Assembly (NCBI GenBank): GCA_964638585.1
Contig: CAZXAN010000001.1
Span: 23,454-87,453, forward strand
Origin: an uncultured Candidatus Saccharibacteria bacterium
GTDB lineage: Bacteria > Patescibacteriota > Minisyncoccia > Phycocordibacterales > Phycocordibacteraceae
Length of the DNA stretch: 64,000 nt
Direction of reading: 5' to 3'
In this document: one piece after another, positions 8,397 to 57,999 of the stretch
Numbering within the stretch: position 1 is the stretch's first letter
How the letters are laid out: every line of letters begins with the position of its first letter
The notes under the pieces: model-generated
Database searches by the model: none
What the model saw: the letters and a program-made list of their open reading frames with translations, nothing else
Told to the model about the DNA's origin: nothing
Program-made: the position numbers and the translations under genes

Positions 8397-10118
8397 TCAC
8401 GGACTTGCCAGATAATCCATACGGATGTTGGCTATTGTCGCACGAAGCTTCTTGTCTCGCTCAACTATCCACTTCATCCGCTGGCAAGCATGGAGCACGG
8501 ACGTATGGTCTCTCTTGAATATCTTTGCTAGCTTGACCAAACTGAAGTTGAAGTCCAAGTTAAGCAAGTACATCACGAGGTGACGTGGCCACACGAATGA
8601 ACGGCGCCGAGACACACCGAGAACGTCATCCACACTTACACCGTACGCTTTAGCTACCGTCTGAAGTACTTTTTGTGAAGCGTCTTCTTTTTCTAATGTA
8701 ACGACAGAGCCGACATCTGCGACGATTGGATCCTCTTCCGGTGGCTCGACTACAACTGCGGGTTCGCGATCAAGCTGTATAGCTCGTAAAACCTTCTTCA
8801 CAGCTCGAGCCGCGACTTGACGAGCATACTCGCGCGTGAAGCCGAACTTGTTTCCGATGTCCTCGAGCGTGAACGACCTGTCGCCGTTAACTCCGGTTCT
8901 GAGACTGAGTACCTCCCGTTCTTGTTGTGTAAGTGTACGGAAGGCTCGCTCTACTTCATCGGCGTTAGCCCTTTCCATCAAGACATCTTCTTGGGTCGGA
9001 CTGGTATCGGCAATGAGATCGAGGAGAGGAGTGTCACTATCTCCAACCTCTTCGTCCAAGGAAACCATATTTTGGAAGCGAAGCGCCTCTTCGAGAAGAT
9101 TGGCCTCGCTGGGAGCGAGCTCCATTGCCGACGTAACCTCTCGGAACGTCGGTTCGCGACCTAGTGTGCTTGTGTACTCGCGTCGTGCCTTAAAGTACTT
9201 GCGCATAGTCTCACACAAGTGAACGGGAATGCGAACTATCCGATCGGTATCCATGATCGCTCGTGTGATGACCTGGCGGATCCACCACGTGGCATACGTA
9301 GAAAACTTGTAGCCGAGATGATAATCGAACTTCTCGACCGCTTTCAGTAGCCCGATGTTTCCCTCCTGAATTAGATCGAGAATGGTGAGACTTTCTGCAG
9401 TGCGAGTGTAGCGTCTCGCGATTGAAACCACGAGCCGCAAATTCGCCTTGATGAATCGCTCTTTGGCGACATTGTCTCCCTTTTCGATCTTTTGCATCAA
9501 TGCCACTTCCTCGTCCCTTGAAAGAATCCTGAACTGTCCGGCCTCCTGCAAGTATTTGTACAAGAGGTCATCGTGGTCCGCCCAGGGCAATTCGTACAAA
9601 GGTTTTGAGGTGACGAGTGGGTCTTCGATATCTTCAATTGCTTCTTCTACCGAGAGATCGACTTCTGCGAGAGTTGAAACATCTTCCGTTGCCGATTCTT
9701 CGACCTCGATTAAAGGCTCGTCGACTCGATTTGTCGGATAGAGTGGTGTGGCGCTAGGCCTCGAAACCACTTGTTTCTTCGGAAACTCCAGTACTTCCGC
9801 CTTGCCCGATACGCCGAGCTTGGCATTTTTCAGATATTCGCCCAGCTGAGTGACAAAGAATGAGAGAAGCTCTCGGTCTTTAATCACGCGAGCTGGCAGT
9901 AGTTCGGTAATTTCCGTAGGAGTTATATACCCGCGGCGTTTCGCGATTTCCAGGATGTGCGAATTCTTTGAGTTTAAGGTCCGTTTATTAAGTTCAGCCA
10001 GGAACGAAGGCACTACTTCTCCCATATTTACGACATTGGTCTTGTTCATTCTTACCCCTGTAAACGTTTGAGTGGTTAGTGGAAAGATCGGGTTTACAAT
10101 CTGATGCAAATCTCGCAT
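8397..10118 (-). CDS. rpoD: RNA polymerase sigma-70 factor (RpoD-like) with a C-terminal DnaA domain-IV-like DNA-binding domain
   Basis: Regions 1.2 through 4 are recognisable ([18 protein letters not shown].. and the 4.2 [30 protein letters not shown]). An extra roughly 100-aa tail, [34 protein letters not shown].., matches the DnaA C-terminal DnaA-box-binding domain almost motif for motif. The true start may be the internal Met at about 10049. Confidence 0.9.
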
Positions 10119-10228: not shown

Positions 10229-12301
10229 GTGCTTACTCCCTTTGGGTACCAGCAGGAATGTCTTGCAGTTACGGAAGCAGCGCGTCGTGACCATGAAAAA
10301 AGAGCTCTCGTCGTAATGGCAAGCGGGCTTGGAAAGACTGTTACCGCCGCGTTTGACGCCAAGTCATGGCGCCAGAAGAACACGGGTCGGTATCTCTATC
10401 TCTGCCACCAGAACGATATTCTCTATCAGGCCAAGACAACCTTTGAGGGTATCGTTGATCAAGGACAGACCTATGGGTACTTCCATGGGCAAGAAAAAAG
10501 CGCCGGGGCTGATTTTCTTTTTGCGTCGCTTCAGACGATGGAGCGCCACAAAGAGTCTTTTGACCCTCGTGCGTTCGCGTATATTCTGGTTGACGAAAGT
10601 CACCATTCTAGTGCGCGGACGTATCGCACCACAATCGAGTATTTTAAGCCGGATTTTTTGTTGGGGGTGACCGCTACTCCCGATCGGCTTGATGAACTTA
10701 ACATCCGCGATATCTATGGTGAGGAGGTGTACTCCTTGCCACTCGACGAGGCTATGGCGAGAAAGTTGGTAACACCAGTGGATTATCGGCTCCTCACTGA
10801 CGAAATACAACTTTCTGGCTACATTGAAACCGGCGGGGGGCGAATGAGCATCAACAAGCTCAATCGGAAGATTTTCATCCCGCGTCGGGATGAGGAGATT
10901 GCGAAAATCATCGCTCGTCATGTCAGTGGTGTGAAAAGTCCTCGCGTTATTATCTTCTGCAATTCGGTTCAGCACTGCGACCACCTGGCCAAGTTTATTC
11001 CGAACTGTTTCGCCATCCACTCGCGCGTTCCGTTAAAAGAGCGCGCCGTACGGTTGGAGCTGTTTCGGCAAGGCTTGGTAGGCACGGTGCTCGCCGTTGA
11101 CGTCTTCAACGAGGGTATAGACATACCACAGGCGAATGTCATCGTTTTCCTGCGGTCAACTGACTCTCCGACAGTCTTTCTCCAGCAATTGGGGCGAGGT
11201 CTGCGGAAGAATGAGGAAAAAGAAAAAGTGATCGTCCTAGATTTTGTCGCTAACTGCGAACGGATCAAGATGGTGCACGACCTCTATCAGTCGGTTGAAC
11301 GAAAAAAACAGCAAGTGCAAAAACAGTCGCAGCAGTCGAGCGGGCTTGAACCGATGACACTCAACATCAAGACGGGTGAATTCAAGGAAAAAATAGTACC
11401 CATTCTTAATCTGTTGGAACGGGTTCATCCGAGCTTCTATCCGACGTGGAAAGAGGCTGCAGAGGCCGCCTGCGAGCTCGGTGTTGGTTCAAAGGACGAG
11501 TACGCGAAGCTGTACCTGAAAGACCCACGCCTCCCGTCTAGCCCGCGCTACACATACCGCACCGATTTCCCAGGCTGGGAAATCTTCCTCGGCAAGCGAA
11601 CGGCAGAACGATACGAAACGTGGCAAGAAGCGAGCAAGGCCGCCATAGCGCTTGGTATAAAAACGCCAGCTGAATATAAAGAGCGATATACCGAGGACAC
11701 TAAACTACCGGCTGACCCGCCGTCATACAAAGAGTGGCCACGGTGGCCAGTGTTTCTGGGAGGCGAATTGAGAGACCTCTATCCTGACTGGGAGCAAGTA
11801 GCGAAGGTGTGCAAACACCACAAAGTTCAGTCGGTGGCCGAGTACTGGGACCTGTGTGATAAGGACAAGCGATTGCCACGACGACCCCATGATGTCTACG
11901 AAGACTTCCCGGGATTTGCGAAAATGCTTGGTACTAAGCGCATCGTTGAGGACCCATATCCGACCTGGCAGGAAGCGAGTAGAGCTGCAAAAGAGCTTGG
12001 CATAAAAAGTTCTTTTGATTACACGAAGAAGTACAAAAAGAATACTCAGCTCTATGCAGCGCCCGCCGATCGGTACCCGGATTTCCCTGGATGGGCTACC
12101 TTCTTAGGTATTCCAGAACGAGAAGTTGTTCAGGATCCATACCCGACGTGGCAAGAAGCAGGAAGAGCCGCAAAGACTCTAGGGATCCAGAGCGGGACTG
12201 AGTATCACCAACGGCGTCGAGAAGATCCACGTCTGCCCGGAGTGGTTCATCGATATAAAGGGTTCCCGGGCTGGAACAAATTCCTGGGTAAATCTCGCTA
12301 A
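10229..12301 (+). CDS. SF2 DEAD/DEAH-box helicase (ResIII-like) with five C-terminal helicase-associated (HA) repeats
   Basis: Walker A MASGLGKT and motif II VDESHH are present, followed by a Helicase_C region (QQLGRGLR). The C-terminal 290 aa comprise five repeats of about 55 aa each, YPTWQEAxRAAKELGIxSxxEY..LPxxPxxY.xFPGWxxFLG. GTG start with AGGAGA Shine-Dalgarno. Confidence 0.8.
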   Translation: MLTPFGYQQECLAVTEAARRDHEKRALVVMASGLGKTVTAAFDAKSWRQKNTGRYLYLCHQNDILYQAKTTFEGIVDQGQTYGYFHGQEKSAGADFLFASLQTMERHKESFDPRAFAYILVDESHHSSARTYRTTIEYFKPDFLLGVTATPDRLDELNIRDIYGEEVYSLPLDEAMARKLVTPVDYRLLTDEIQLSGYIETGGGRMSINKLNRKIFIPRRDEEIAKIIARHVSGVKSPRVIIFCNSVQHCDHLAKFIPNCFAIHSRVPLKERAVRLELFRQGLVGTVLAVDVFNEGIDIPQANVIVFLRSTDSPTVFLQQLGRGLRKNEEKEKVIVLDFVANCERIKMVHDLYQSVERKKQQVQKQSQQSSGLEPMTLNIKTGEFKEKIVPILNLLERVHPSFYPTWKEAAEAACELGVGSKDEYAKLYLKDPRLPSSPRYTYRTDFPGWEIFLGKRTAERYETWQEASKAAIALGIKTPAEYKERYTEDTKLPADPPSYKEWPRWPVFLGGELRDLYPDWEQVAKVCKHHKVQSVAEYWDLCDKDKRLPRRPHDVYEDFPGFAKMLGTKRIVEDPYPTWQEASRAAKELGIKSSFDYTKKYKKNTQLYAAPADRYPDFPGWATFLGIPEREVVQDPYPTWQEAGRAAKTLGIQSGTEYHQRRREDPRLPGVVHRYKGFPGWNKFLGKSR

Positions 12302-28274: not shown

Positions 28275-29501
28275 TTACGAAGTGAGTGATCGATTCCCGT
28301 CTGCTTTAAATTCTGTAGAGAACTCGCCTCTGAGTGCTCGGTAGTAGCCGGCCAGCGCAATCATGATGGCATTATCGGTAGTCAAACTAGGAGCAGGAAG
28401 CAGGAGGCGGCAAGCAGGGAATGAAGACGCCATTTCACGAGTAAAGACTCGGCGTATGTGAGTGTTCGCTGAGACCCCGCCGCCAATAACAAGCGTTTGC
28501 GCGCCAGTCTCTTCAAGCGCCTGCGCCGTCTTCTTCCACAGCACATCTGCAACCGCGTTTTCAAATTCGTGCGCTAGATGCTGTTTTTCTTCATCACTCA
28601 AATCTGGTTTATCTTTCAATAAATACAACACTGCTGTTTTCAGCCCCGCAAACGAGAAGTCGCACGTGCCCGAATCTATCATCGGCCTCGGCAATGTGAA
28701 GGGTTTCGTAAATCCTTCATCTAATGAAGGATTTACGAAACCCTTCATGAGAAGTGATTCGGACAGTTTAGAAAGTTCGGGGCCGCCAGGGTAGGGGAGG
28801 CCGAGCATGCGCGCGACCTTGTCATAGGCTTCGCCGACTGCATCGTCGCGCGTCTGACCTATGAGCTCATATTTCAACCATTCTTTCATTAGCACTAGTT
28901 CTGTGTGGCCACCAGAAATGAGAAGCGCAAGCACGGGCAATTTTATATCTTTGATTTTGAGCTCGTCGTCGCTGCCCGCCGAAGGCGGGGCGACATGATT
29001 TCGGCTTGCTAATGCCGAAATCACATGTCCTTCCATATGATTCACCGCCACCAGAGGCTTGTCCCAGACGAGCGCAAGAGCTTTCGCGAAGTTGATGCCC
29101 ACCCATAGCGCAGGTTCTAGACCTGGACCTGCTGTTACGGCTATCGCGTCTATTTCGGGCGGCTCGCATTCAGAAACGAATTCAAAAAAGACTTCTACGA
29201 GGCCGGGCTCACGCGCCAAAATTTCTGAAATTTTGGCGCGTGATTCTTCTGGTATCGCCTGAGCATCTTCATGCAGAAGTTCTGCCTCTTCGAGCGCTGC
29301 TTCCAGAATTGGTACAAGATTCTTCGCGTGCTCGCGCTTCGCGAGAGCAGGGAAGACCCCGCCGTATTCTTTATGAACTTCTATCTGCGAAATAAGTGCA
29401 TTCCCGAGCACAGAGAATGTTGCACTGGACTGGTCTCCACTGCATTCAAGAATCGCAATCGCCGTTTCATCACAACTTGTCTCAATGGCTAGGATTTTCA
29501 T
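28275..29501 (-). CDS. tsaD: tRNA N6-adenosine threonylcarbamoyltransferase
   Basis: MKILAIETSCDETAIAIL.. and a Kae1/TsaD fold throughout, plus the HMEGH metal site. The track ORF extends a further 57 codons upstream; start placed at the canonical MKIL. Confidence 0.9.
   Translation of the reverse strand: MKILAIETSCDETAIAILECSGDQSSATFSVLGNALISQIEVHKEYGGVFPALAKREHAKNLVPILEAALEEAELLHEDAQAIPEESRAKISEILAREPGLVEVFFEFVSECEPPEIDAIAVTAGPGLEPALWVGINFAKALALVWDKPLVAVNHMEGHVISALASRNHVAPPSAGSDDELKIKDIKLPVLALLISGGHTELVLMKEWLKYELIGQTRDDAVGEAYDKVARMLGLPYPGGPELSKLSESLLMKGFVNPSLDEGFTKPFTLPRPMIDSGTCDFSFAGLKTAVLYLLKDKPDLSDEEKQHLAHEFENAVADVLWKKTAQALEETGAQTLVIGGGVSANTHIRRVFTREMASSFPACRLLLPAPSLTTDNAIMIALAGYYRALRGEFSTEFKADGNRSLTS
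28697..28747. repeat. Perfect inverted repeat inside tsaD CDS (24-bp arms tgaagggtttcgtaaatccttcat, 3-nt spacer cta)
   Basis: Arms 28697-28720 and 28724-28747 are exact reverse complements, 51 bp and in frame. The repeat encodes about 17 extra residues (..MKGFVNPSLDEGFTKPF..) in a loop that is short in canonical TsaD. Confidence 0.85.
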
Positions 29502-29523
29502 AATCTGTAGTAGTATAGCTCGT

Positions 29524-30072
29524 ATGCAGAGAAATGACCTACTTGTATGGATAGACCTCGAAATGACCTCGATTCGCGACGCACGAATTGACACGATTAC
29601 AGAGATTGCGATCGTGTTAACGGACAAAGATCTAAACACGGTAGCTGAAATGGAAAATATGGTTGTACACACAGATAGAGAGTTTTACGCGTCGCGTACA
29701 TGGACCAGCGACCCGCAATTAGAAGAGTTAATTGACGAAGCTGCTGCGAGCATCATAACGCTGGAAGAAGCCGATGAGCGAGCGCGAACCTTTCTAGAAG
29801 AACATGTTACGCCTCAGTCGTCACCGCTGTGTGGCAACTCGATTCATTCAGATCGCCATTTTATGAAATTGCAGATGCCTCGGTTTGAGAGTTATCTGTT
29901 TTACCGTTGTATTGATGTGTCAAGTATTAAAGAACTCGCGCGTCGCTGGGCTCCAGCGATCTATGAAGAAGCAGAGCGCCGCAAGGGTGTGAAGCCACAC
30001 CGGGCAAAGGCGGATATTATTAATTCCATTGAAGAGCTGAAGTACTATCGAGATAATTTCTTCAAGCTATAA
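29524..30072 (+). CDS. orn: Oligoribonuclease
   Basis: LLVWIDLEMTSI.. and a DEDDh exonuclease pattern, 182 aa. Its start codon lies only 22 bp from the divergent tsaD start. Confidence 0.85.
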   Translation: MQRNDLLVWIDLEMTSIRDARIDTITEIAIVLTDKDLNTVAEMENMVVHTDREFYASRTWTSDPQLEELIDEAAASIITLEEADERARTFLEEHVTPQSSPLCGNSIHSDRHFMKLQMPRFESYLFYRCIDVSSIKELARRWAPAIYEEAERRKGVKPHRAKADIINSIEELKYYRDNFFKL

Positions 30073-44849: not shown

Positions 44850-45663
44850 GTGAGGGACGTCTAACGTCCCTCACTCGAAGGACCCGGTGCTGTGTAGTGC
44901 AGAGTCGTCAGGTATATTGCGGCCGAGAATCACGTCTCGGGCGTACTCGCGGTAATCATCTGGACTGTAAAGCGATGTAAGGAACTTCTTGTCGACAATT
45001 GGCCGATTGAAAGTTCCAACATAATCACCTAGGCTCGAATACGGATATGCACTCGCCCAGGCATAGGCTTCGTTAAAGTTACTCCGCGCCCAATTGTAGC
45101 CCTTAGGGTGAACATCGAATGCGTTTTTCACTTGGATGTACGCCGATACGTATCGGAAATAATTGTCATCGTCCACAGTTCGCGCACAATATGAACCTTG
45201 GAAGAGGGATCCTTTTTCACAATAGCGTTCGTTAAATTTCTTTGCCATCCCGGTGCCTAGACGATGCATAAAGCGTACGACACCACCTTCCTTGATTTCC
45301 TGGAGCAGAAGGTGAAAGTGATTCTCGACGAGTCCAAAAGCGACTAGTCCAACATGTGAATCACGTTCTGGCCAATGAGGTGGCCGCTCGAAGGTTCGGT
45401 GAACGTGAGCGTCATATAAATCGCGATGCCAATTTGGAGAAGTGAAGCTGTCGTTGAAGTGAGTCAGCATCAGCAAGAATCTGAATCGATCTGCCTCATC
45501 ACGAACGATAGGTAATCCTCGCGTTCCTCGTTGAACGACGTGAACGTACGACCCAATGCTGAACGGCTCCTTCCGCATACACCAATCATACACGACCTGA
45601 GGGACGTTAGACGTCCCTCAAATGTCCTTGTGTGCATAAGTGAGGGACGCTAAGCGTCCCTCA
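44850..45663. mobile_element. REP-RAYT unit: IS200-like tyrosine transposase flanked by three REP palindromes
   Basis: GAGGGACG-N5-CGTCCCTC at 44850-44874 overlaps the RAYT stop. GAGGGACG-N5-CGTCCCTC at 45598-45620 lies 5 nt upstream of the start. GAGGGACGC-N3-GCGTCCCTC sits at 45641-45663. Confidence 0.7.
44871..45593 (-). CDS. REP-associated tyrosine transposase (RAYT; IS200/Y1-transposase-like)
   Basis: YVHVVQRGTRG..FLLMLTH.. and the HUH motif ENHFHLLLQE, then FMHRLGTGMAKKFNERYCEKGSLFQGSYCAR (catalytic Tyr region) and WARSNFN..SSL. Collinear with PF01797-type RAYTs. Confidence 0.75.
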   Translation of the reverse strand: MYDWCMRKEPFSIGSYVHVVQRGTRGLPIVRDEADRFRFLLMLTHFNDSFTSPNWHRDLYDAHVHRTFERPPHWPERDSHVGLVAFGLVENHFHLLLQEIKEGGVVRFMHRLGTGMAKKFNERYCEKGSLFQGSYCARTVDDDNYFRYVSAYIQVKNAFDVHPKGYNWARSNFNEAYAWASAYPYSSLGDYVGTFNRPIVDKKFLTSLYSPDDYREYARDVILGRNIPDDSALHSTGSFE

Positions 45664-51751: not shown

Positions 51752-51804
51752 ACGAATGGTGGATTGCGCGGCTGCCCTGGGCAGCCGCGTGTTATTTTAT
51801 ATGT

Positions 51805-52341
51805 ATGGCAAATGCATTTAGTTCTCCACACGAAAATGTCCTGCAGATGGGATTGCACAATGGTATGAAGGTAGGCGACCTAGGAGCAGGAAGCGGACAC
51901 TACTCGCGCGCAGCCGCTGGTGTTGTGGGACATAGCGGTAAGGTATACGCGATAGATGTACAAGAAGATGTTTTAAAACACTTGAAGCTGAATTCGCACA
52001 TACATCATCAGAGCATTATTGACACAATTTGGGGCGATATTGAGAAGCCTGGCGGGACGCACCTGCGCGATGCATCTCTTGATGCAGTTATTCTAGCGAA
52101 CACGTTATTCCAAATTGAAAACCGTTTTGGATTATTGAAGGAGATTAAACGCATTTTAAAGCCTGGTGGCAAACTCATGGTTGTTGATTGGGCAGGGAGC
52201 TATGGCGGGATGGGTCCGGTACCTGAAAAGGTTGTTACAGAGAGCGACACAGAAGCTTTTTTCATCAACGGCGGATTCCACAAGGTTAAATCATTTCGTG
52301 CTGGCCCGCATCATTACGGGATAATATTTACTTCGCCATGA
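51805..52341 (+). CDS. Class I SAM-dependent methyltransferase
   Basis: VGDLGAGSGHYS (motif I), AIDVQEDV (motif II), LKPGGKLMVVDW (post-II/III). Confidence 0.7.
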   Translation: MANAFSSPHENVLQMGLHNGMKVGDLGAGSGHYSRAAAGVVGHSGKVYAIDVQEDVLKHLKLNSHIHHQSIIDTIWGDIEKPGGTHLRDASLDAVILANTLFQIENRFGLLKEIKRILKPGGKLMVVDWAGSYGGMGPVPEKVVTESDTEAFFINGGFHKVKSFRAGPHHYGIIFTSP

Positions 52342-53639
52342 AAATATCTCTGTTCCAAGCGATCTTACTCGGAGTGTTCAGTATCGGGGCGCTTATGGGT
52401 CTCTTTGTTTTTGCTACACACACCAACAACAATAGTGGTGGCGAAAACGATATTGGCACAGTAGTTATATGGGGCACTCTACCTAAGACAAGCATGGACA
52501 ACGTTTTGTCGTTAGCGGCGCAGGCAAACGAGGCTCTCAAGAATTTGTCATATGTGCAGAAGAGTCCATCAGTACTGTCATCAGAGCTTGCGTCTGCGAT
52601 AGCCACCGGTGTAGCACCTGACCTAATTCTCGCTTCACAAGAAGAGCTCCGATCAATCGCTAAATATCTATCACCTATACCCCTTGATATGCTCTCACAG
52701 GCTACATTTACCAGCACGTTTATTGAAGAGGGAGACGTATTCGCGACAAATGGCGGGTACTACGGCATACCGTTTCTTGTTGACCCTCTTGTACTCTTCT
52801 CTAATCGCGACATCCTCTCGTCTGCTGGTATCGCACGGCCACCCGCGACTTGGGAGGCGTTAACTGGTCTTGTACCAAGTGTAGCGCAGATGACACCAGC
52901 ACGACAAATAACTCGTGGCCTTATAGCACTCGGCACTTATGACAATGTTCGCAATGCGCGCGGGATACTCTCATCACTCTTTTTACAACAAAGTATTCCA
53001 ATTTCTTCATATAACAACGGTGGTCTAGGGGCCAATATTGGGTCTAATACTTCAAGCGGTCAATCTCCAGGCAAAGCTGTTGTAGGCTTCTACACACAGT
53101 TTGCCGATCCGTCTAAGGTCTCGTATACGTGGAATGCTTCTTTGCAAAGTTCTGACCAAATGTTTCTAGCAGGAGATCTGGCGCTTTACCTTGGCTATGC
53201 ATCTGAAGCACGATATATGACACAGGGCAATCCAAATCTTAACTTCGCGGTTACTGCTTTGCCACAACCTGCCACTGCCAAATTTAGAAATGCTTATGGG
53301 CTACTCTACGCATTTATGATCCCACGCGGAGCCAAGAACTCGTCGGGAGCGTATCAGTCTGCAGAATTCTTCACTACTCCTACAGCACAGATCTCGTCTG
53401 CCTCGGCTACTGGGCTCGCACCGTCTACTCTAAGCCAGCTCGCGAGCGTGCCAGACGACCCTGTCGCTGTGGTTGCGTATGCCGAGGCACTCTACTCAAG
53501 AGGGTGGCTGTCCCCAATGCCTGCCGACACAGACCGCGTCTTCTCGGGTATGATTAGGGATGTGATAAGCGGTCGCTCATCTATAGACAATGCGCTCATC
53601 TCTGCCGAGCGCTCTCTAACCCAACTACTACAACAATGA
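52338..53639 (+). CDS. Membrane-anchored extracellular solute-binding protein (SBP family 1-like)
   Basis: N-terminal TM, then TVVIWGTL.., APDLILAS.., GGYYGIPFLVDPLVLFSNRDILSSAGIARPPATWEAL (the YgvP..YNkdl..PkTWdEl hallmark). No ABC permease or ATPase genes are adjacent. ATGA overlap with the next gene. Confidence 0.55.
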   Translation: MKISLFQAILLGVFSIGALMGLFVFATHTNNNSGGENDIGTVVIWGTLPKTSMDNVLSLAAQANEALKNLSYVQKSPSVLSSELASAIATGVAPDLILASQEELRSIAKYLSPIPLDMLSQATFTSTFIEEGDVFATNGGYYGIPFLVDPLVLFSNRDILSSAGIARPPATWEALTGLVPSVAQMTPARQITRGLIALGTYDNVRNARGILSSLFLQQSIPISSYNNGGLGANIGSNTSSGQSPGKAVVGFYTQFADPSKVSYTWNASLQSSDQMFLAGDLALYLGYASEARYMTQGNPNLNFAVTALPQPATAKFRNAYGLLYAFMIPRGAKNSSGAYQSAEFFTTPTAQISSASATGLAPSTLSQLASVPDDPVAVVAYAEALYSRGWLSPMPADTDRVFSGMIRDVISGRSSIDNALISAERSLTQLLQQ

Positions 53640-54112
53640 AAACTCGTTATTTCGCCGTATTCGCATTCTCACTTTTTGCATTCGTGCCAACTACACACGC
53701 TGCCTGTATTTCTGACCCAGAGGCACCTAGCGTATATTTTGAAACAAGCACGGGTGCTCCATGTACACCGCAAACATCGGGACCAGCAATCACAAATCCT
53801 GGAAATAATCCGCAGATTACAAACCCAGGCACAAGTGTCACTCTCATCAACCCGCTCAAGGGCGGGGCAACACTAGAGTCATTTCTTAGTAGCATCTTAG
53901 ACTTCGTGATACGCATCGGCGCCATCATAGTCGTCTTGATGCTAGTCTTTGTCGGCTTCAAGTTTGTCATGGCACAGGGCAAGGACAGCGAGCTTGTAGA
54001 AGCAAGAAAGATGCTTCTCTGGACTATAGTCGGCGCACTGATCTTGCTTGGAGCCAAGGCTATACAAGTGGCTATAACAGAAACTGTGAAGGCGCTCTCT
54101 GTCGGCGGCTAA
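53636..54112 (+). CDS. Pilin-like small protein P1 (signal peptide, Cys/Pro-rich variable region, conserved C-terminal 2-TM hairpin; TrbC/VirB2-like topology)
   Basis: Signal peptide MKTRYFAVFAFSLFAFVPTTHA, variable region with 2 Cys, then TM1-(QGKDSELVEARK)-TM2. This hairpin is shared with the five downstream paralogs. Confidence 0.6.
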   Translation: MKTRYFAVFAFSLFAFVPTTHAACISDPEAPSVYFETSTGAPCTPQTSGPAITNPGNNPQITNPGTSVTLINPLKGGATLESFLSSILDFVIRIGAIIVVLMLVFVGFKFVMAQGKDSELVEARKMLLWTIVGALILLGAKAIQVAITETVKALSVGG

Positions 54113-54125
54113 ATATGATATTTGC

Positions 54126-54395
54126 ATGACATTTGCTCAATTCGTCGGTAACGGTCAATCAGGCATTATTGGCGCTATCAATACTGCCGTAGTGCCTGTC
54201 ATCTTCGCATTTGCATTCGCCGCATTCATCTGGGGTGTTACGAAATATTTCTTTATCAATGCAGACGATGAGACCAAGCGTGCCGAAGGCAAACAATTCG
54301 TACTATGGGGCATACTAGGCATGGTCGTACTGTTCTCTGTCTGGGCGCTCGTGAATATGTTGTTATCCACTCTAGGCATCGCGCCGAGGGCTTAA
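54126..54395 (+). CDS. Pilin-like small protein P2 (2-TM core only)
   Basis: IIGAINTAVVPVIFAFAFAAFIWG-..DDETKRAEGKQFVLWG-ILGMVVLFSVWALVNML: the shared core motif. Confidence 0.6.
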   Translation: MTFAQFVGNGQSGIIGAINTAVVPVIFAFAFAAFIWGVTKYFFINADDETKRAEGKQFVLWGILGMVVLFSVWALVNMLLSTLGIAPRA

Positions 54396-54412
54396 TATGT
54401 AATACTTAGACT

Positions 54413-54859
54413 ATGCAACAAACATTTACACAAACGTTCTCGTACGGTTTTAGTAGCGGATTTGGTGGTCCATATGCAACTGCGTGTGGGACAAACTATT
54501 TCTGCAGTCTCGCAAACATCATTATTAACACCATTAATGGCGTTCTCGTCCCACTTCTCTTCGCAATTGCATTTATCGTATTTCTATATGGCATAGCCAA
54601 GGCCTACATATTTTCTGGTGGCGAACCAGACAAGGTGAGCGAGGGACATAAGCTGATACTCTGGGGCTTGGTAGCCTTTGCCGTGATGATATCTGTATGG
54701 GGGCTTGTAAATATTGTCGCATACAGCTTCGGCCTCAATGGCTCTTATGCACCGCCAACTCCGACCTCGTATTCTGGGCAAAGTGTTCCTGGCACGTATG
54801 GTGGACAACCGCCAGGGTATTTAGAATGTCCGAAAAAGCCAGACGGGTCTTGTATCTAA
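54413..54859 (+). CDS. Pilin-like small protein P3 (Gly/Ser-rich N-terminus, Cys-containing C-terminal tail)
   Basis: Core IINTINGVLVPLLFAIAFIVFLYG..EPDKVSEGHKLILWGLVAFAVMISVWGLVNIV. Tail ..PPGYLECPKKPDGSCI. Confidence 0.6.
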   Translation: MQQTFTQTFSYGFSSGFGGPYATACGTNYFCSLANIIINTINGVLVPLLFAIAFIVFLYGIAKAYIFSGGEPDKVSEGHKLILWGLVAFAVMISVWGLVNIVAYSFGLNGSYAPPTPTSYSGQSVPGTYGGQPPGYLECPKKPDGSCI

Positions 54860-54875
54860 TCTATATAAATAAAAT

Positions 54876-55397
54876 ATGAAAAAAATCTCACTCCTCATTA
54901 CAATTCTCGCACTAGCTACGTCCTTTTCTATTCCAGTGGCTACCTCTGCTGTAGGTGTTGATGGCGCTTGCGATGACACTCTTGCCAGGTGTGACAGTGG
55001 TCTCACATGTTCTCTCGGTAAATGTTCTGTAGTTGGCGTTGGCCCAGGAAATACAGGAAATACAGGAAATGCTGGCAACAGTGGAACTGGTGGCACCCCA
55101 GGTAGCATCAATCAGACATACCTGACTTATTACTACACCCTCATCTTAACGATAATTAACTCATACCTCGTCCCGATACTTATCGCCATAGCATTTATAG
55201 TGTTCTTGTATGGCGTATACGAATACTTCATCCTCGGTGCCGCAGAAGAGGATAAGCGCAAAGAGGGTAGACAGTTCGTCTTGTGGGGAGTTATCGGCTT
55301 CGTCATAATAGTTTCGATCTGGTCTATTGTGAATATAGTTCAAAGCACGGTGATACCTGCAGGGCAGAACAACCGTCCGACCTATCCGACTCTATAA
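54876..55397 (+). CDS. Pilin-like small protein P4 (signal peptide, Cys-rich plus GNTGNTGNAGNSG repeat variable region)
   Basis: Signal peptide MKKISLLITILALATSFSIPVATSA, 6 Cys, a Gly-Asn-Thr repeat, then core IINSYLVPILIAIAFIVFLYG..EEDKRKEGRQFVLWGVIGFVIIVSIWSIVNIV. Confidence 0.6.
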   Translation: MKKISLLITILALATSFSIPVATSAVGVDGACDDTLARCDSGLTCSLGKCSVVGVGPGNTGNTGNAGNSGTGGTPGSINQTYLTYYYTLILTIINSYLVPILIAIAFIVFLYGVYEYFILGAAEEDKRKEGRQFVLWGVIGFVIIVSIWSIVNIVQSTVIPAGQNNRPTYPTL

Positions 55398-55481
55398 AAC
55401 CTTATCCACACAGGGCGTTATAGAGCATTGACCGCAGTGCTAGAAAAGCTACAATTATCTCATTATTCGTTTATTTGTATT

Positions 55482-55853
55482 ATGAAAAAAACACTTGCCA
55501 TTACTTCTTTAACAATCGCATCGTTTGCCGTACCGCTAGTGTCTATGGCCGCTGTTAGCAACCTTTCAGAGTTTGGAGGGTTTATTATCGGTATCATCAA
55601 CAATATTCTCGTACCGGTACTCTTCGCCATAGCATTTATCGTCTTCTTGTGGGGCGCATTCTCGGTCTTTATTCTTGGACACGACTCTGAAGAGACAAAG
55701 GAGAAGGGTAAGAATCTTATGCTATGGGGTCTTATTGGTTTCTTCGTCATGGTCTCTGTGTGGGGTCTCGTTAACCTGCTTACTGGCTCTATCCAGTTTG
55801 GCAATCCAGCTCAACAGACTCCTCCTGCCGCTCGAGGTACACAGCCTATATAA
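55482..55853 (+). CDS. Pilin-like small protein P5 (signal peptide plus 2-TM core)
   Basis: Signal peptide MKKTLAITSLTIASFAVPLVSMAAVS, then core IINNILVPVLFAIAFIVFLWG..SEETKEKGKNLMLWGLIGFFVMVSVWGLVNLL. The track ORF starts earlier at a TTG at 55428. Confidence 0.6.
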   Translation: MKKTLAITSLTIASFAVPLVSMAAVSNLSEFGGFIIGIINNILVPVLFAIAFIVFLWGAFSVFILGHDSEETKEKGKNLMLWGLIGFFVMVSVWGLVNLLTGSIQFGNPAQQTPPAARGTQPI

Positions 55854-55861
55854 GATAAGTA

Positions 55862-56149
55862 ATGGCTGTTCTAAACGAGTTTCTTGTTAAGGTTGTTACG
55901 CAGATAGTCAATCCGATTATCCTGCTTCTCTCTGCCGCCGCTTTTGTGGTATTTGTCTGGGGCGTGTTTGAGTTCATAGCGCACGCAGGAGACGAGACTA
56001 AGCGTACAGAGGGCCGTAAGGCTATCGGCTGGGGGCTCATCGGGCTAGTGATAATCTTTGGTGCATACGGCATAATCAATGTCGCTCTCGGCACATTTAA
56101 CCTAGGCACTATTGAATCTAAACTCCCTCCAAAATCTGCGACACCGTAA
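55862..56149 (+). CDS. Pilin-like small protein P6 (2-TM core only)
   Basis: VVTQIVNPIILLLSAAAFVVFVWG..GDETKRTEGRKAIGWGLIGLVIIFGAYGIINVA. Confidence 0.6.
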   Translation: MAVLNEFLVKVVTQIVNPIILLLSAAAFVVFVWGVFEFIAHAGDETKRTEGRKAIGWGLIGLVIIFGAYGIINVALGTFNLGTIESKLPPKSATP

Positions 56150-56176
56150 GATAGAATGGGGAAGTAAGGCAAATAA

Positions 56177-56252
56177 ATCCAGCACCTAGTTTTGTTGCAA
56201 AACTAGGTGCTGGATAAAAAAAGGCCACCGCAAGCGGTGGCCTTTGAGTTTG
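56177..56252. terminator. Bidirectional terminator region: an 18-bp perfect palindrome with 3-nt loop (56177-56215), then a GC hairpin ggccaccgc-aa-gcggtggcc plus T-tract
   Basis: atccagcacctagttttg / caaaactaggtgctggat are exact reverse complements. The second hairpin at 56223-56242 is followed by tttgagtttg on the plus strand and has a T-run on the minus strand. The region sits between the convergent pilin-like operon and the 56261 gene. Confidence 0.6.
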
Positions 56253-56260
56253 CTACTGTT

Positions 56261-57001
56261 TCAGCACTGTTTCGTGCCTTCTTGCACGAACCAATACTTT
56301 GGAGGTGTCTGCCCCTCTTTCAGAACGAACCAAAAAGTGTCTGCAATACCTTCAAATCCTTTTTCCGGGCCACCCTTATACGAGGTTTTAATTCCGAAGT
56401 CCTGGATGTTTCTTGGATCAAAGCAGACAGAAGTTCTGTCAGGAATCACAACCTTTACTGTAGAGCCGTTTCCTAACATCGTTGGCACACAACGACTTGT
56501 CGCAGTGCAGTCGTACTTACTACCGTTTTCTTGTTGTGATTGTTGCGTCTGCGACTGTTGCGAGGGTGTTTCCTCTACCCAGAGGTTCACCGCTGGCATG
56601 ATGATTAGGATTGATAACATCACACCAGCGAGTACCAACTGAAGCGTCTTTGTCGCCCCTTCTGCATGAATCGCGATTAGAACGGCTAGAACACCCCAGA
56701 GAACTACAAGCGAGAACCAATACTGTTGCCACTTAGCAACATCGGCGACGCGCACTGGAGAAAAAATCCCCCAAAGAACGAGGCCACCGCCAATAACAAT
56801 GAGCAGAATAGTCCAGACGTTTGATTTCAACTGGTCCGTCATGCTCTGTTTTGTGGAGGGAACTGCTCCAGCACTCGCTCCCGTGGTAGTCCCTGTCGTT
56901 GGAACAGTTGCCGTAGATGTTTTTTCGAACTTCATGCCTGGCAATATAACTCTCCAAGCAATGATCACTGCAAGTAGACCAAAGAAGAGATATGTAATCA
57001 T
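56261..57001 (-). CDS. Hypothetical membrane protein (Thr-rich linker, 4 TM, Cys-containing C-terminal ectodomain)
   Basis: 246 aa. No family recognised. Confidence 0.4.
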   Translation of the reverse strand: MITYLFFGLLAVIIAWRVILPGMKFEKTSTATVPTTGTTTGASAGAVPSTKQSMTDQLKSNVWTILLIVIGGGLVLWGIFSPVRVADVAKWQQYWFSLVVLWGVLAVLIAIHAEGATKTLQLVLAGVMLSILIIMPAVNLWVEETPSQQSQTQQSQQENGSKYDCTATSRCVPTMLGNGSTVKVVIPDRTSVCFDPRNIQDFGIKTSYKGGPEKGFEGIADTFWFVLKEGQTPPKYWFVQEGTKQC

Positions 57002-57999
57002 TTCTGATTTTCCTTGTCAGTAAAACTTTTTGCAATTGCCGCTGCAGTGCCAACCAGGTCAGTGAATCCTCCAGAACCAGCAATAATTGTTCGTTGACTG
57101 GATTTGTCGCCTTCTCCCGCTATTGCACGAGCAGTTTCGGCGCCAAGAACATCATGACCTTTTACATCAAGGTCTTTTGCCATTTTTGTCAATCCAGCAG
57201 TACGACCATCCAAAATCGCTTTTTCTTTACCGCCCAGACCTTCGCCCTCGCGGATGTTGGCCATTTTTTGACGTTCTTGAACTATCACATTTTGAACGGC
57301 AGTATTGAGCGTTTTGGAGAACTTTATTGCCTTGATTTGAGCGCTTTCGATGCGAATTCCCCAGCCAGGATTAGTATTGTTGCCGTGCACCAGTAGCTCG
57401 ATTGCAGTCTGAAGTTCAGTGCTGAATTCACTGATGCGAAGAAGCGCAACAGCAGGGCTAACCTTTGTGAGTCGTTCAGTGAACATTTTCACGCAAGTAT
57501 CTTCCATCTGCTTTCGAGCTTCGTCGACGGAACCAATAACTGTCAAGAAAGTCTTGAAGTCATCTATTCTCCAGCGAATCACTGGCACGACTTCTTCAGT
57601 CATACGATTGTCATAGGGGTCATTCTCTTCGATCAGAGCATCCTTGCTCGCCTGATTCCTGCCACTGAAGGTAACCCTTATTGGCGGTCTCATACCGAGT
57701 GCTTGTAATTCTGGTGGAACAGTACTGCCTTCCGGATCACCCGCACTTGCGCGATAGATTTTTTCCGGTTCAGCAGGGAGCTCGTCTTGTATGACGAGCC
57801 GTGTTTCTGTTACAAGCCAACATATTAGCAGCGGGACAAATACAAGACCGGAAGAGACGTTGAACAATGGTCTGCCCAACAGGAGGACACATCCTTGCTC
57901 CTTTGGACCGACGATTCGTAAACTTCCTGCCAAGTATAGGAGCAGTACGTAGAATGCGATCGTGAAGCCACTATAACTTTCTCCGAATATTTCAACCAT
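56998..57999 (-). CDS. SPFH/band-7 (stomatin/prohibitin-like) domain protein
   Basis: N-terminal TM then LRIVGPKEQGCVLLLGRPL..GLVFVPLLICWLVTETRLVIQD, an SPFH-like beta-strand pattern. Moderate support. Confidence 0.45.
   Translation of the reverse strand: MVEIFGESYSGFTIAFYVLLLYLAGSLRIVGPKEQGCVLLLGRPLFNVSSGLVFVPLLICWLVTETRLVIQDELPAEPEKIYRASAGDPEGSTVPPELQALGMRPPIRVTFSGRNQASKDALIEENDPYDNRMTEEVVPVIRWRIDDFKTFLTVIGSVDEARKQMEDTCVKMFTERLTKVSPAVALLRISEFSTELQTAIELLVHGNNTNPGWGIRIESAQIKAIKFSKTLNTAVQNVIVQERQKMANIREGEGLGGKEKAILDGRTAGLTKMAKDLDVKGHDVLGAETARAIAGEGDKSSQRTIIAGSGGFTDLVGTAAAIAKSFTDKENQK

What the first reader, a model, noticed from the sequence alone, without database searches (positions are those of the whole stretch)
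52338..56252. Operon of a solute-binding-like protein followed by six diversified pilin-like 2-TM paralogs
Six tightly packed genes (spacers of 8-17 bp, plus one ATGA overlap with the upstream SBP-like gene) encode small proteins sharing one conserved C-terminal hairpin. The consensus is ..(I/L)(I/L)N.(I/L)VP(V/L)LFAIAFIVFL(Y/W)G ... (D/E)E.K..EG+.(L/V)LWG(L/V)IGF...VS(V/I)WGLVN(I/L). Everything N-terminal to it is unrelated between copies. Two copies have only a bare core. Three have Sec signal peptides with Cys-rich, Pro-rich or (GNT)n low-complexity ectodomains. One has a Cys-containing C-terminal tail. The topology (signal peptide, two hydrophobic helices, short charged loop) is that of TrbC/VirB2-type conjugative pilins. 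No VirB4/VirD4 ATPases are nearby, so the array instead looks like a variable surface-filament or adhesin cassette set, possibly relevant to host attachment in an episymbiont.
Basis: partly seen in the sequence, partly recalled or inferred. Interest (0 to 1): 0.8.

Follow-up and report, generated by a model that had tools for sequence, protein, structure and literature searches.

The report
VirB2-like pilin array in Patescibacteria
Six small membrane-hairpin genes behind a sugar-binding-protein gene belong to the type IV secretion "pilin array" already described in ultra-small Patescibacteria; this copy is a conserved six-gene version that lies far from any secretion machinery.

Summary
Six co-directional genes (53636-56149, +) follow an SBP_bac_8/1 gene, overlapping it at ATGA, and each encodes a two-helix hydrophobic hairpin. 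All six hit Pfam PF18895 (T4SS_pilin). Five score above the curated cut-off. Gene 1 is a divergent TrbC/VirB2-like member just below it.

The family is large: 13,827 representative clusters. Tandem arrays of it in Patescibacteria are already published: 441 arrays of 2-11 genes, and an essential six-gene array in Southlakia epibionticum. So this is a new member of a known kind.

What I add:
- In about 80 related Kaiserbacteria-like loci the block gyrA / methyltransferase / SBP / six pilins is fixed. Of 43 complete arrays, 41 have six genes and 2 have seven.
- Each position is orthologous across genomes: cores 49-89% identical against 13-52% between paralogs.
- Only the Cys-rich ectodomains at positions 1, 3 and 4 turn over. 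They sit at either terminus, as expected if both ends face outward.
- No VirB4/VirD4 lies in the window or within 10 kb in any related locus. That is common in this phylum and does not argue against a T4SS role.

The "variable cassette set" reading is only partly supported. The role of the SBP is unresolved.

The parts
51765..51791 (+). Terminator-like GC-rich hairpin followed by a T-run, just upstream of the methyltransferase gene. It is a possible 5' boundary of the transcription unit.
   Evidence: Consensus scan only: 12-pair stem with 9 GC pairs. Function not shown.
51805..52341 (+). Class I SAM-dependent methyltransferase (178 aa). Its stop overlaps the SBP start by 4 nt. It is syntenic with the SBP in all related loci. 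Any functional link to the pilins is unproven.
   Evidence: Pfam Methyltransf_11/31/25. Present directly upstream of the SBP in every related locus that has upstream sequence.
52338..53639 (+). Membrane-anchored solute-binding-protein-like gene (433 aa; N-terminal hydrophobic anchor, no lipobox Cys). No ABC permease or ATPase gene was found among the window ORFs scanned.
   Evidence: Pfam SBP_bac_8 at 1.4e-20 and SBP_bac_1 at 1.1e-15. Weak profile matches to solved sugar/maltodextrin binding proteins. Orthologs are 60-75% identical in more than 190 loci. No transporter partners in the window.
53636..54112 (+). Pilin 1 (158 aa): signal peptide, Pro-rich ectodomain with 2 Cys, conserved TLINPL motif, then a TrbC/VirB2-like hairpin. 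A divergent subfamily.
   Evidence: PF18895 at 25.5 bits (cut-off 26.6) and PF04956 at 23.4 bits (cut-off 27.9). Orthologs carry both families, and one is named 'TrbC/VirB2 family protein' by NCBI. An ortholog in L005 passes the PF04956 cut-off (28.3 bits). hhalign to the profile of genes 2-6 gives 95.3% probability.
54126..54395 (+). Pilin 2 (89 aa): bare hairpin, no signal peptide.
   Evidence: PF18895 at 41.3 bits. This position is 84-116 aa in 37 related arrays.
54413..54859 (+). Pilin 3 (148 aa): uncharged 36-aa N-tail with 2 Cys, hairpin, then a Pro/Gly/Tyr-rich C-tail with 2 Cys. This copy has no signal peptide, although 26 of 37 orthologs have one.
   Evidence: PF18895 at 30.0 bits. 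Sequences; architecture survey.
54876..55397 (+). Pilin 4 (173 aa): signal peptide, 4-Cys module, GNT-type low-complexity stretch, then the hairpin. This is the most variable position in related genomes (96-409 aa).
   Evidence: PF18895 at 32.1 bits. Length range. Orthologs carry large Cys-rich extensions at the N- or the C-terminus.
55428..55455 (+). Promoter-like site (TTGACC, 16 nt, TACAAT) inside the 84-nt spacer before pilin 5.
   Evidence: Consensus scan, 10 of 12 matches. The number of such sites in the region is not above the shuffled expectation, so this is only a lead.
55482..55853 (+). Pilin 5 (123 aa from ATG 55482): signal peptide, then a short mature hairpin. This is the best-conserved position.
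   Evidence: PF18895 at 38.8 bits. Core 72-89% identical to its orthologs in L004 and L005, and mean 79.6% across 37 arrays. AlphaFold hairpin model. The same start is called in L001.
55862..56149 (+). Pilin 6 (95 aa): bare hairpin, no signal peptide.
   Evidence: PF18895 at 41.2 bits. This position is 86-101 aa in related arrays.
56177..56245 (.). Two adjacent GC-rich hairpins between the convergent pilin 6 and the downstream minus-strand membrane-protein gene. Likely a bidirectional terminator that ends the operon.
   Evidence: Sequence. The scan flags them as terminator-like on the - strand.

Best explanation
This is the VirB2/TrbC-like pilin array of the Patescibacteria type IV secretion system, in a Kaiserbacteria-like member of the Paceibacteria.

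Shown here:
- Six old paralogs: one TrbC-like and five PF18895-type. Each is a two-helix hydrophobic hairpin with a short charged loop.
- They are co-oriented and tightly packed behind a methyltransferase gene and an SBP-like gene, and are closed by hairpin terminators.
- Number, order and position-specific architecture are conserved across the clade.
- Only the Cys-rich ectodomains diverge quickly.

Inferred:
- Each hairpin inserts with both termini outside. Three use signal peptides; the bare ones insert as N-tail proteins.
- A VirB4-type T4SS encoded elsewhere in the chromosome extracts them from the membrane and assembles them into a heteromeric pilus, or a conduit that spans the cell wall.
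- The conserved short subunits (positions 2, 5 and 6) form the body.
- Positions 1, 3 and 4 display rapidly evolving, disulfide-bonded modules on the outside, where they contact the host.

The SBP and the methyltransferase are co-transcribed neighbours. Whether they take part is unproven.
For: Family assignment: PF18895 hits all six genes, five above the gathering score. PF04956 hits gene 1 and its orthologs. NCBIfam's Mbov_0395 pilin-like conjugal-transfer model is the only recurring secondary hit.

Homology among the six.

Hairpin model. Two hydrophobic helices and a charged loop in each protein.

Conservation:
- Of 43 complete arrays in related loci, 41 have six genes, always after gyrA-MT-SBP.
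- Same-position core identity is 49-89%, against 13-52% between positions.
- Cores are 59-80% identical across 37 arrays, like the SBP at 69%. Extensions at positions 1 and 4 are about 29-30%.

Topology:
- Large Cys-rich extensions occur after a signal peptide at the N-terminus, or after helix 2 at the C-terminus, never both.
- Cys counts are even in most proteins. This fits disulfides outside the cell.

Literature:
- 441 VirB2 arrays of 2-11 genes in Patescibacteria, with mean identity 25% (PMC12102498).
- S. epibionticum SEML1_0014-0019 are six consecutive PF18895 genes, each scored essential, next to the T4SS genes (PMC10633639; PMC12857230).
- Pilins lie away from virB4 in about 40% of assemblies that have both.

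Co-assembly: fused proteins with 2-3 hairpins exist elsewhere in the family. This is the pattern expected if paralogous hairpins assemble together.
Against: - No VirB4, VirD4, VirB6 or PrgI gene lies in the 64-kb window, and none recurs within 10 kb in about 80 related loci. I could not check the rest of the genome.
- No pilus made of these proteins has been seen in any Patescibacterium. The published role is inferred from homology and essentiality.
- Structure searches against solved structures gave only generic helical hairpins. No VirB2 or TraA chain stood out.
- Sequence searches of the PDB found nothing.
- Gene 1 falls just below both Pfam cut-offs in this copy.
- The loops have no net positive charge, so the inside-loop topology is not independently supported.
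Confidence: 0.62

Rival explanations
1. The hairpins never leave the membrane. They are anchors, or a membrane-embedded ring or channel, that display the Cys-rich modules on the cell surface, or that form part of the T4SS translocon. No extended filament is made.
For: Extensions of up to about 300 aa on a pilin would be hard to pack into a canonical VirB2 helical filament. Fused 2-3 hairpin proteins resemble polytopic membrane proteins. Monoderm T4SSs normally lack pili (PMC12102498). No pilus has been observed.
Against: The family is homologous to the true pilins TrbC/VirB2. Three of the six positions are short or bare subunits with nothing to display, which an anchor role does not explain. 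All six are individually essential in S. epibionticum.
Confidence: 0.2
2. The SBP, and perhaps the methyltransferase, is a dedicated part of the system. The pilus or conduit delivers host-derived sugars or glycans, and the membrane-anchored SBP captures them at its base. Alternatively, the SBP acts as an assembly factor or receptor for the pilins.
For: The SBP stop and the pilin 1 start are -4 to +5 nt apart in most of 39 distinct arrays. SBP-pilin adjacency was found in every related locus examined. The SBP is conserved at 69% mean identity, with many invariant aromatic residues. No ABC permease or ATPase partner is in the window. Reviews speculate that the T4SS takes up host molecules (PMC11665869; PMC12857230).
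Against: All the evidence comes from one clade (60-75% identity), where more than 10 kb of upstream gene order, including gyrA, is conserved too. The adjacency may therefore be simple inherited synteny. Four-nt overlaps between unrelated genes are common in this compact genome: 20938/20941, 22096/22099 and 984/987. The essential S. epibionticum array has no SBP beside it.
Confidence: 0.13
3. The genes have nothing to do with secretion. They would be holins, bacteriocin or immunity peptides, or another small-membrane-protein family that merely looks like a pilin.
For: They are small two-TM proteins in tandem, and there is no nearby machinery.
Against: No PHROGs (phage, including holin) or PADLOC (defence) family matches any of the six. 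There are specific PF18895/PF04956 matches. The locus is a conserved core-chromosome site between gyrA and topA, not a mobile or phage context.
Confidence: 0.03

Closest known systems
Essential six-gene pilin array of Southlakia epibionticum ML1 (SEML1_0014-0019; Wang et al. 2023, PMC10633639). The equivalent array in Nanosynbacter lyticus TM7x was first called a Sec-secreted or effector array.
   Same: Six consecutive, co-oriented, sequence-divergent PF18895 genes of about 100-185 aa, some also hitting PF04956, in a Patescibacterium. Same family and the same array logic.
   Different: In S. epibionticum the array sits directly beside the T4SS machinery genes and has no SBP or methyltransferase upstream. 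Here no machinery lies in the 64-kb window, and the array is coupled to MT-SBP. Orthology of individual positions between the two classes was not tested.
VirB2 arrays across Patescibacteria (Quinonero-Coronel et al. 2025, PMC12102498)
   Same: Tandem arrays of 2-11 PF18895/PF04956 genes, with mean inter-paralog identity 25% and maximum 54%. The window's paralogs are 13-42% identical.
   Different: That survey reports arrays as most abundant in Microgenomatia and Saccharimonadia, and discusses versatility towards different hosts. It does not describe a clade-wide fixed six-position architecture, extensions that switch terminus, or an SBP partner; the terms SBP, solute and ABC do not occur in its text.
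TrbC/VirB2/TraA conjugative pilins of Gram-negative T4SSs (Pfam PF04956)
   Same: Leader or signal peptide followed by two hydrophobic helices and a short loop. Gene 1 and its orthologs match the family model.
   Different: Classical systems have one major pilin encoded inside the virB/tra operon, processed by dedicated enzymes (my own knowledge). Here there are six paralogs and no adjacent machinery. Several carry large Cys-rich ectodomains. Genes 2-6 do not reach PF04956.
VirB2 paralog arrays of Bartonella and Anaplasma
   Same: Tandem amplification and diversification of virB2, proposed to give antigenic variation or varied host binding (as summarised in PMC12102498).
   Different: Here the paralogs are ancient and each is conserved across genomes. 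That fits non-redundant subunits better than interchangeable antigenic variants.
Mbov_0395 family pilin-like conjugal transfer proteins of Mycoplasma ICEs (NCBIfam NF045849)
   Same: About 80-aa two-helix proteins from monoderm T4SS contexts. Genes 2-6 match at E 1e-6 to 1e-9.
   Different: All scores (25-38 bits) are below the model's 40-bit cut-off, so these are not members. There is no ICE context.
Sugar-type ABC transporter substrate-binding proteins (SBP_bac_1/8; MalE/GacH-like)
   Same: The upstream gene matches both Pfam models and, weakly, solved sugar and maltodextrin binders.
   Different: No permease or ATPase gene lies nearby. It is anchored by an N-terminal helix. It is followed by pilins in every relative examined.

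Membership tests
Pfam PF18895 T4SS_pilin | Score at or above the curated gathering threshold (26.6 bits) | tested here: met
   Genes 2-6 score 30.0-41.3 bits. Gene 1 scores 25.5 bits, just below. Precomputed PF18895 hits are recorded for all six on the identical contig and for nearly all orthologs.
Pfam PF18895 T4SS_pilin | Two hydrophobic helices joined by a short charged loop | tested here: met
   Hydropathy analysis of all six. AlphaFold model of gene 5 with helices 28-65 and 70-103 and pLDDT 85-92.
TrbC/VirB2 pilin (PF04956) | Score at or above the gathering threshold (27.9 bits) | tested here: inconclusive
   Gene 1 scores 23.4 bits, below the cut-off. Gene 6 scores 10.9, and the others give no hit. 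The position-1 ortholog in L005 scores 28.3, above the cut-off, and the one in L063 scores 26.8. Most position-1 orthologs carry a precomputed PF04956 hit.
TrbC/VirB2 pilin (PF04956) | Encoded within or beside a VirB4-containing T4SS gene cluster | tested here: not met
   No T4SS component was found among 50 window ORFs scanned. No recurrent large ATPase lies within 10 kb in related loci.
TrbC/VirB2 pilin (PF04956) | Fold matches solved VirB2/TraA pilin structures | tested here: inconclusive
TrbC/VirB2 pilin (PF04956) | Leader cleavage, maturation (cyclisation or acetylation) and polymerisation into a pilus | not testable with these tools
   Signal-peptide-like N-termini with small-residue sites (THA/A, TSA/V, SMA/A) are present in genes 1, 4 and 5. 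Processing and assembly need experiments.
Patescibacteria VirB2-like pilin array (PMC12102498; PMC10633639) | Two or more tandem PF18895/PF04956 genes with low mutual identity, in a Patescibacteria genome | tested here: met
   Six tandem genes with paralog core identity 13-42%. Relatives are named Kaiserbacteria, Paceibacterota or Minisyncoccia.
Patescibacteria VirB2-like pilin array (PMC12102498; PMC10633639) | The genome also encodes the Patescibacteria-clade VirB4 and partners | not testable with these tools
   Only 64 kb of a contig of at least 185 kb is available. In the survey's Table S1, one Kaiserbacteria genome is listed with VirB4 and one without.
Type IV pilus (T4P) pilins | Class III signal peptide with a G/(F,M)xxxE prepilin-peptidase site | tested here: not met
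   A regular-expression search of the first 40 residues of all six found no such motif.
ABC transporter substrate-binding protein (SBP_bac_1/8) | Pfam domain above threshold | tested here: met
   SBP_bac_8 at 74.7 bits (cut-off 27) and SBP_bac_1 at 58.9 bits (cut-off 26).
ABC transporter substrate-binding protein (SBP_bac_1/8) | Operonic with cognate permease and ATPase genes | tested here: not met
   None among the window ORFs scanned. In every related locus the genes downstream of the SBP are pilins.
Phage holins / defence-system proteins | Match to a PHROGs or PADLOC family | tested here: not met
   No family at E<=0.01 for any of the six pilins or the SBP.

The most novel reading that the evidence does not exclude
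In this Paceibacteria clade the pilin array has been detached from the T4SS core and joined to an orphan, membrane-anchored sugar-type SBP, and perhaps a methyltransferase, to form one functional module. The VirB2-like conduit would carry host-derived glycans or sugars, which the SBP captures. Alternatively, the SBP would be a pilus assembly or receptor component. Either would be a first concrete handle on the proposed nutrient-uptake role of the Patescibacteria T4SS.
Probability: 0.13. Interest if true: 0.7.

Novelty: new member of a known kind. Interest (0 to 1): 0.33.

Why it matters
The Patescibacteria T4SS and its pilin array are essential for epibiotic growth in the one species tested, yet their function is unknown.

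This locus shows that in a large groundwater clade the array is a fixed set of six non-interchangeable subunits, with fast-evolving, disulfide-rich surface modules at three positions. That points to a heteromeric structure with dedicated host-contact subunits, rather than a pool of antigenic variants.

It also shows that the array can sit far from the machinery, beside an orphan sugar-type SBP. None of this changes the category of the finding. It gives testable detail: which subunits are structural and which are adhesive, and whether the SBP takes part.

Tried and rejected
- **PDB sequence searches.** Profile and single-sequence searches with the pilins found nothing usable.
- **Metagenome scan with the pilin alignment.** It returned only the same clade at 60-73% identity, so the SBP-pilin link could not be tested in independent lineages.
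- **Protein searches.** All three listed only close orthologs in their top 120, for the same reason.
- **Recent gene conversion between paralogs.** Rejected: the best DNA repeat is 71 nt at 65-75% identity.
- **Holin or defence readings.** Rejected.
- **Type IV pilus pilins.** Rejected: no class III signal motif.
- **Known domains in the long ectodomains.** Only sub-threshold DUF7107 and Dickkopf_N-like Cys-rich matches appeared.
- **T4SS genes in the flanks of long related loci.** None recurred.
- **Not used.** I did not use the second structure-prediction job. A model of the SBP could not be inspected at residue level with these tools.

Full report
**What is in the sequence**

A 433-aa gene at 52338-53639 (+) is followed on the same strand by six genes:

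| Gene | Coordinates | Length |
|---|---|---|
| 1 | 53636-54112 | 158 aa |
| 2 | 54126-54395 | 89 aa |
| 3 | 54413-54859 | 148 aa |
| 4 | 54876-55397 | 173 aa |
| 5 | 55482-55853 | 123 aa |
| 6 | 55862-56149 | 95 aa |

- The stop of the first gene overlaps the gene 1 start at ATGA.
- The spacers are 13, 17, 16 and 8 nt, except for 84 nt before gene 5.
- Gene 5 most likely starts at ATG 55482, not at the TTG at 55428 that opens the longest ORF. An independent gene call on an identical contig uses the ATG. The TTG is the first base of a promoter-like TTGACC-16-TACAAT site.
- A terminator-like hairpin at 51765-51791 precedes a 178-aa methyltransferase gene at 51805-52341, which itself overlaps the 433-aa gene by 4 nt.
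- Two GC-rich hairpins at 56177-56245 close the block, facing a convergent gene.

**Are the six genes related beyond chance?**

Genes 2-6 are clearly related.
- Pairwise phmmer E-values are 1e-9 to 1e-19 at a nominal database size of 1e6.
- An HMM built from the other five scores each left-out member at 60-98 bits. The best of 200 shuffles scores below 9 bits.

Gene 1 is a separate, distant branch.
- Its core is 13-21% identical to the others.
- Its leave-one-out score is 17.4 bits.
- A profile of its orthologs still aligns to a profile of positions 2-6 with 95.3% probability (E 2.3e-8, 46 columns covering the loop and helix 2).

Shared architecture:
- Each protein has two strongly hydrophobic segments separated by a loop of mixed charge.
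- Genes 1, 4 and 5 also have a signal-peptide-like N-terminus.
- Genes 2 and 6 are bare cores.
- Gene 3 has Cys pairs in both tails and no signal peptide.
- AlphaFold2 on gene 5 with a 50-sequence alignment gives a signal helix plus a hairpin of helices 28-65 and 70-103, with pLDDT 85-92 in the hairpin.

**What family is it?**

- All six match Pfam PF18895 (T4SS_pilin). Genes 2-6 score above the gathering threshold. Gene 1 scores 25.5 bits against a cut-off of 26.6, and also 23.4 bits to PF04956 (TrbC/VirB2).
- Position-1 orthologs usually carry both families. One is named 'TrbC/VirB2 family protein' by NCBI. One ortholog passes the PF04956 cut-off.
- NCBIfam gives only sub-threshold matches to the Mycoplasma ICE pilin-like family NF045849.
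- No PHROGs or PADLOC family matches.
- No type IV pilus prepilin motif is present.
- The family is large. A profile search of 1.84 billion representatives found 13,827 clusters at E<=1e-3 and 7,079 at E<=1e-10.
- The upstream 433-aa protein is an SBP_bac_8/SBP_bac_1 protein. It has weak profile similarity to solved sugar and maltodextrin binders and an N-terminal hydrophobic anchor.

**Surroundings**

I scanned 50 ORFs of the window against Pfam.
- They are housekeeping genes: gyrA, topA, ftsZ, ftsA, lepA, aminoacyl-tRNA synthetases, tsaD, dprA, a sigma factor and others.
- There is no VirB4, VirD4, VirB6, PrgI, relaxase, ABC permease or ABC ATPase.
- My pilin HMMs find no further copy in the window.

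The organism is a Patescibacterium of the Paceibacteria. The identical SBP occurs on groundwater contigs. Relatives are labelled Candidatus Kaiserbacteria, Paceibacterota or Minisyncoccia.

**Comparative evidence**

The SBP has a dense set of orthologs at 60-75% identity.

- Every locus with enough sequence shows gyrA / methyltransferase / SBP / TrbC-like pilin / PF18895 pilins.
- Of 43 loci with sequence beyond the last pilin, 41 have six pilins and 2 have seven (L016, L021).
- The gap between the SBP and pilin 1 is -4 to +5 nt in most.
- In a three-genome comparison, same-position cores are 49-89% identical (mean 68%). Different positions are 13-52% identical (mean 31%). The six are therefore old paralogs, each under purifying selection.
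- Across 37 distinct arrays the cores are 59-80% identical, comparable to the SBP at 69%. The regions outside the core at positions 1 and 4 are about 29-30% identical.

Architecture is position-specific:

| Position | Architecture | Length range |
|---|---|---|
| 1 | Signal peptide plus variable N-extension | 127-438 aa |
| 2 | Bare core | 84-116 aa |
| 3 | Signal peptide in 26 of 37 | 105-184 aa |
| 4 | Large extension at the N-terminus (9 arrays) or the C-terminus (8), never both | 96-409 aa |
| 5 | Signal peptide plus a short mature hairpin | 122-195 aa |
| 6 | Bare core | 86-101 aa |

- The long extensions are Ser/Thr/Gly-rich with up to 28 Cys, arranged in repeated small modules. They give only sub-threshold DUF7107 and Dickkopf_N-like hits.
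- Cys counts are even in most proteins.
- There is no DNA-level sign of recent exchange between paralogs.
- None of the related loci has a recurrent large ATPase within 10 kb. One further locus on a 387-kb contig shows the same block and no T4SS gene in 20 kb.

**What is already known**

- Quinonero-Coronel et al. 2025 (PMC12102498) searched 3,035 Patescibacteria genomes with PF04956 and PF18895. They found VirB2-like genes in 1,948 assemblies that have VirB4, near virB4 in 1,135 of them. They also found 441 arrays of 2-11 pilin genes with mean identity 25%.
- Wang et al. [quoted passage not shown]
- Their tables list SEML1_0014-0019 as six consecutive PF18895 genes of 103-185 aa. Each is scored essential, and they are divergently transcribed from the machinery genes.
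- In TM7x the equivalent genes were first called six putative effectors.

The kind of feature is therefore known and named.

**How it most likely works**

Shown: the family membership, the hairpin architecture, the fixed six-position array, the placement of the extensions, and the operon-like packing.

Inferred:
- The hairpins insert with both termini outside. This is the only topology that explains why Cys-rich modules are tolerated at either end, and why their Cys counts are even.
- A VirB4-type machine encoded elsewhere assembles them into a heteromeric pilus or a conduit through the cell wall.
- The conserved short subunits (2, 5, 6) are structural. Subunits 1, 3 and 4 carry fast-evolving modules that contact the host.

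Two further observations point to co-assembly of non-redundant subunits rather than interchangeable variants:
- Fused proteins with two or three hairpins exist elsewhere in the family.
- Each of the six genes is individually essential in S. epibionticum.

Weak points:
- The machinery was not found in the sequence available to me.
- No such filament has been observed.
- Fold comparison cannot discriminate so simple a fold.
- 300-aa appendages are hard to fit into a canonical VirB2 lattice. This keeps a membrane-anchor or channel reading alive.

**The SBP**

Its tight coupling to pilin 1 and its universal adjacency in this clade suggest a functional link. But all the evidence comes from one lineage, in which more than 10 kb of upstream gene order is conserved too. 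Four-nt overlaps between unrelated genes are common in this genome. The Saccharibacterial array has no SBP. I therefore treat participation of the SBP as an open, low-probability possibility and the most interesting one.

**Verdict**

This is a new member of a known kind. Its useful extra detail is a fixed six-subunit architecture, extensions that switch terminus, detachment from the machinery, and an orphan SBP neighbour.

Noticed in passing
P0361, P0363, P0364, P0375 (representative-library hits): Many of the top family members elsewhere are single proteins with two or three complete pilin hairpins joined by Ser/Thr/Pro-rich linkers. These look like natural fusions of tandem paralogs, which would imply that the hairpins co-assemble. 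Gene-calling read-through was not excluded.
   Followed up: partly
L004/L025 12428-13612, L037 6912-8141, L018 7032-8195, compared with window 54876-55397: At position 4 the Cys-rich appendage sits after a signal peptide at the N-terminus in some genomes, and after helix 2 at the C-terminus (up to about 317 aa) in others, never both. In one array (L018) position 1 also carries a 307-aa C-terminal extension.
   Followed up: partly
window 54413-54859: Pilin 3 of this genome lacks the signal peptide that 26 of 37 orthologs have. It has instead an uncharged 36-aa N-tail with two Cys.
   Followed up: partly
L016 and L021 (arrays downstream of the SBP): Two related loci carry seven pilin genes instead of six: an extra PF18895-type gene inside the array.
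   Followed up: no
window 51805-52341 (+): A 178-aa class I SAM methyltransferase overlaps the SBP start by 4 nt and precedes the SBP in every related locus. Its only defence-library hit is to the methyltransferase part of PADLOC mad2 (1.3e-18), which is probably generic. Whether it modifies the pilins or the SBP is unknown.
   Followed up: partly
window 8397-10118 (-): A 573-aa protein combines sigma-70 regions 1.2, 2, 3 and 4 with a C-terminal DnaA helix-turn-helix domain (PF08299, 5.9e-18). This is an unusual sigma factor / DnaA_C fusion.
   Followed up: no
window 10229-12301 (+): A 690-aa ResIII/Helicase_C helicase carries two 'Integrase repeat unit' (PF14882) stretches in its C-terminal half.
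   Followed up: no
window 44871-45593 (-): An IS200-like Y1 transposase domain (PF01797) lies in a 240-aa ORF among housekeeping genes. It is conserved in some related loci (7 flank matches).
   Followed up: no
window 56261-57001 (-) and 56998-57999 (-): Convergent with the array are a 246-aa polytopic membrane protein with no family match and a 333-aa SPFH/Band 7 protein. Both recur downstream of the array in a subset of related loci, but that flank is otherwise variable.
   Followed up: partly
window 28275-29672 (-): The TsaD domain covers only residues 168-439 of a 465-aa ORF. This suggests an N-terminal extension or fusion, or an over-extended GTG start.
   Followed up: no
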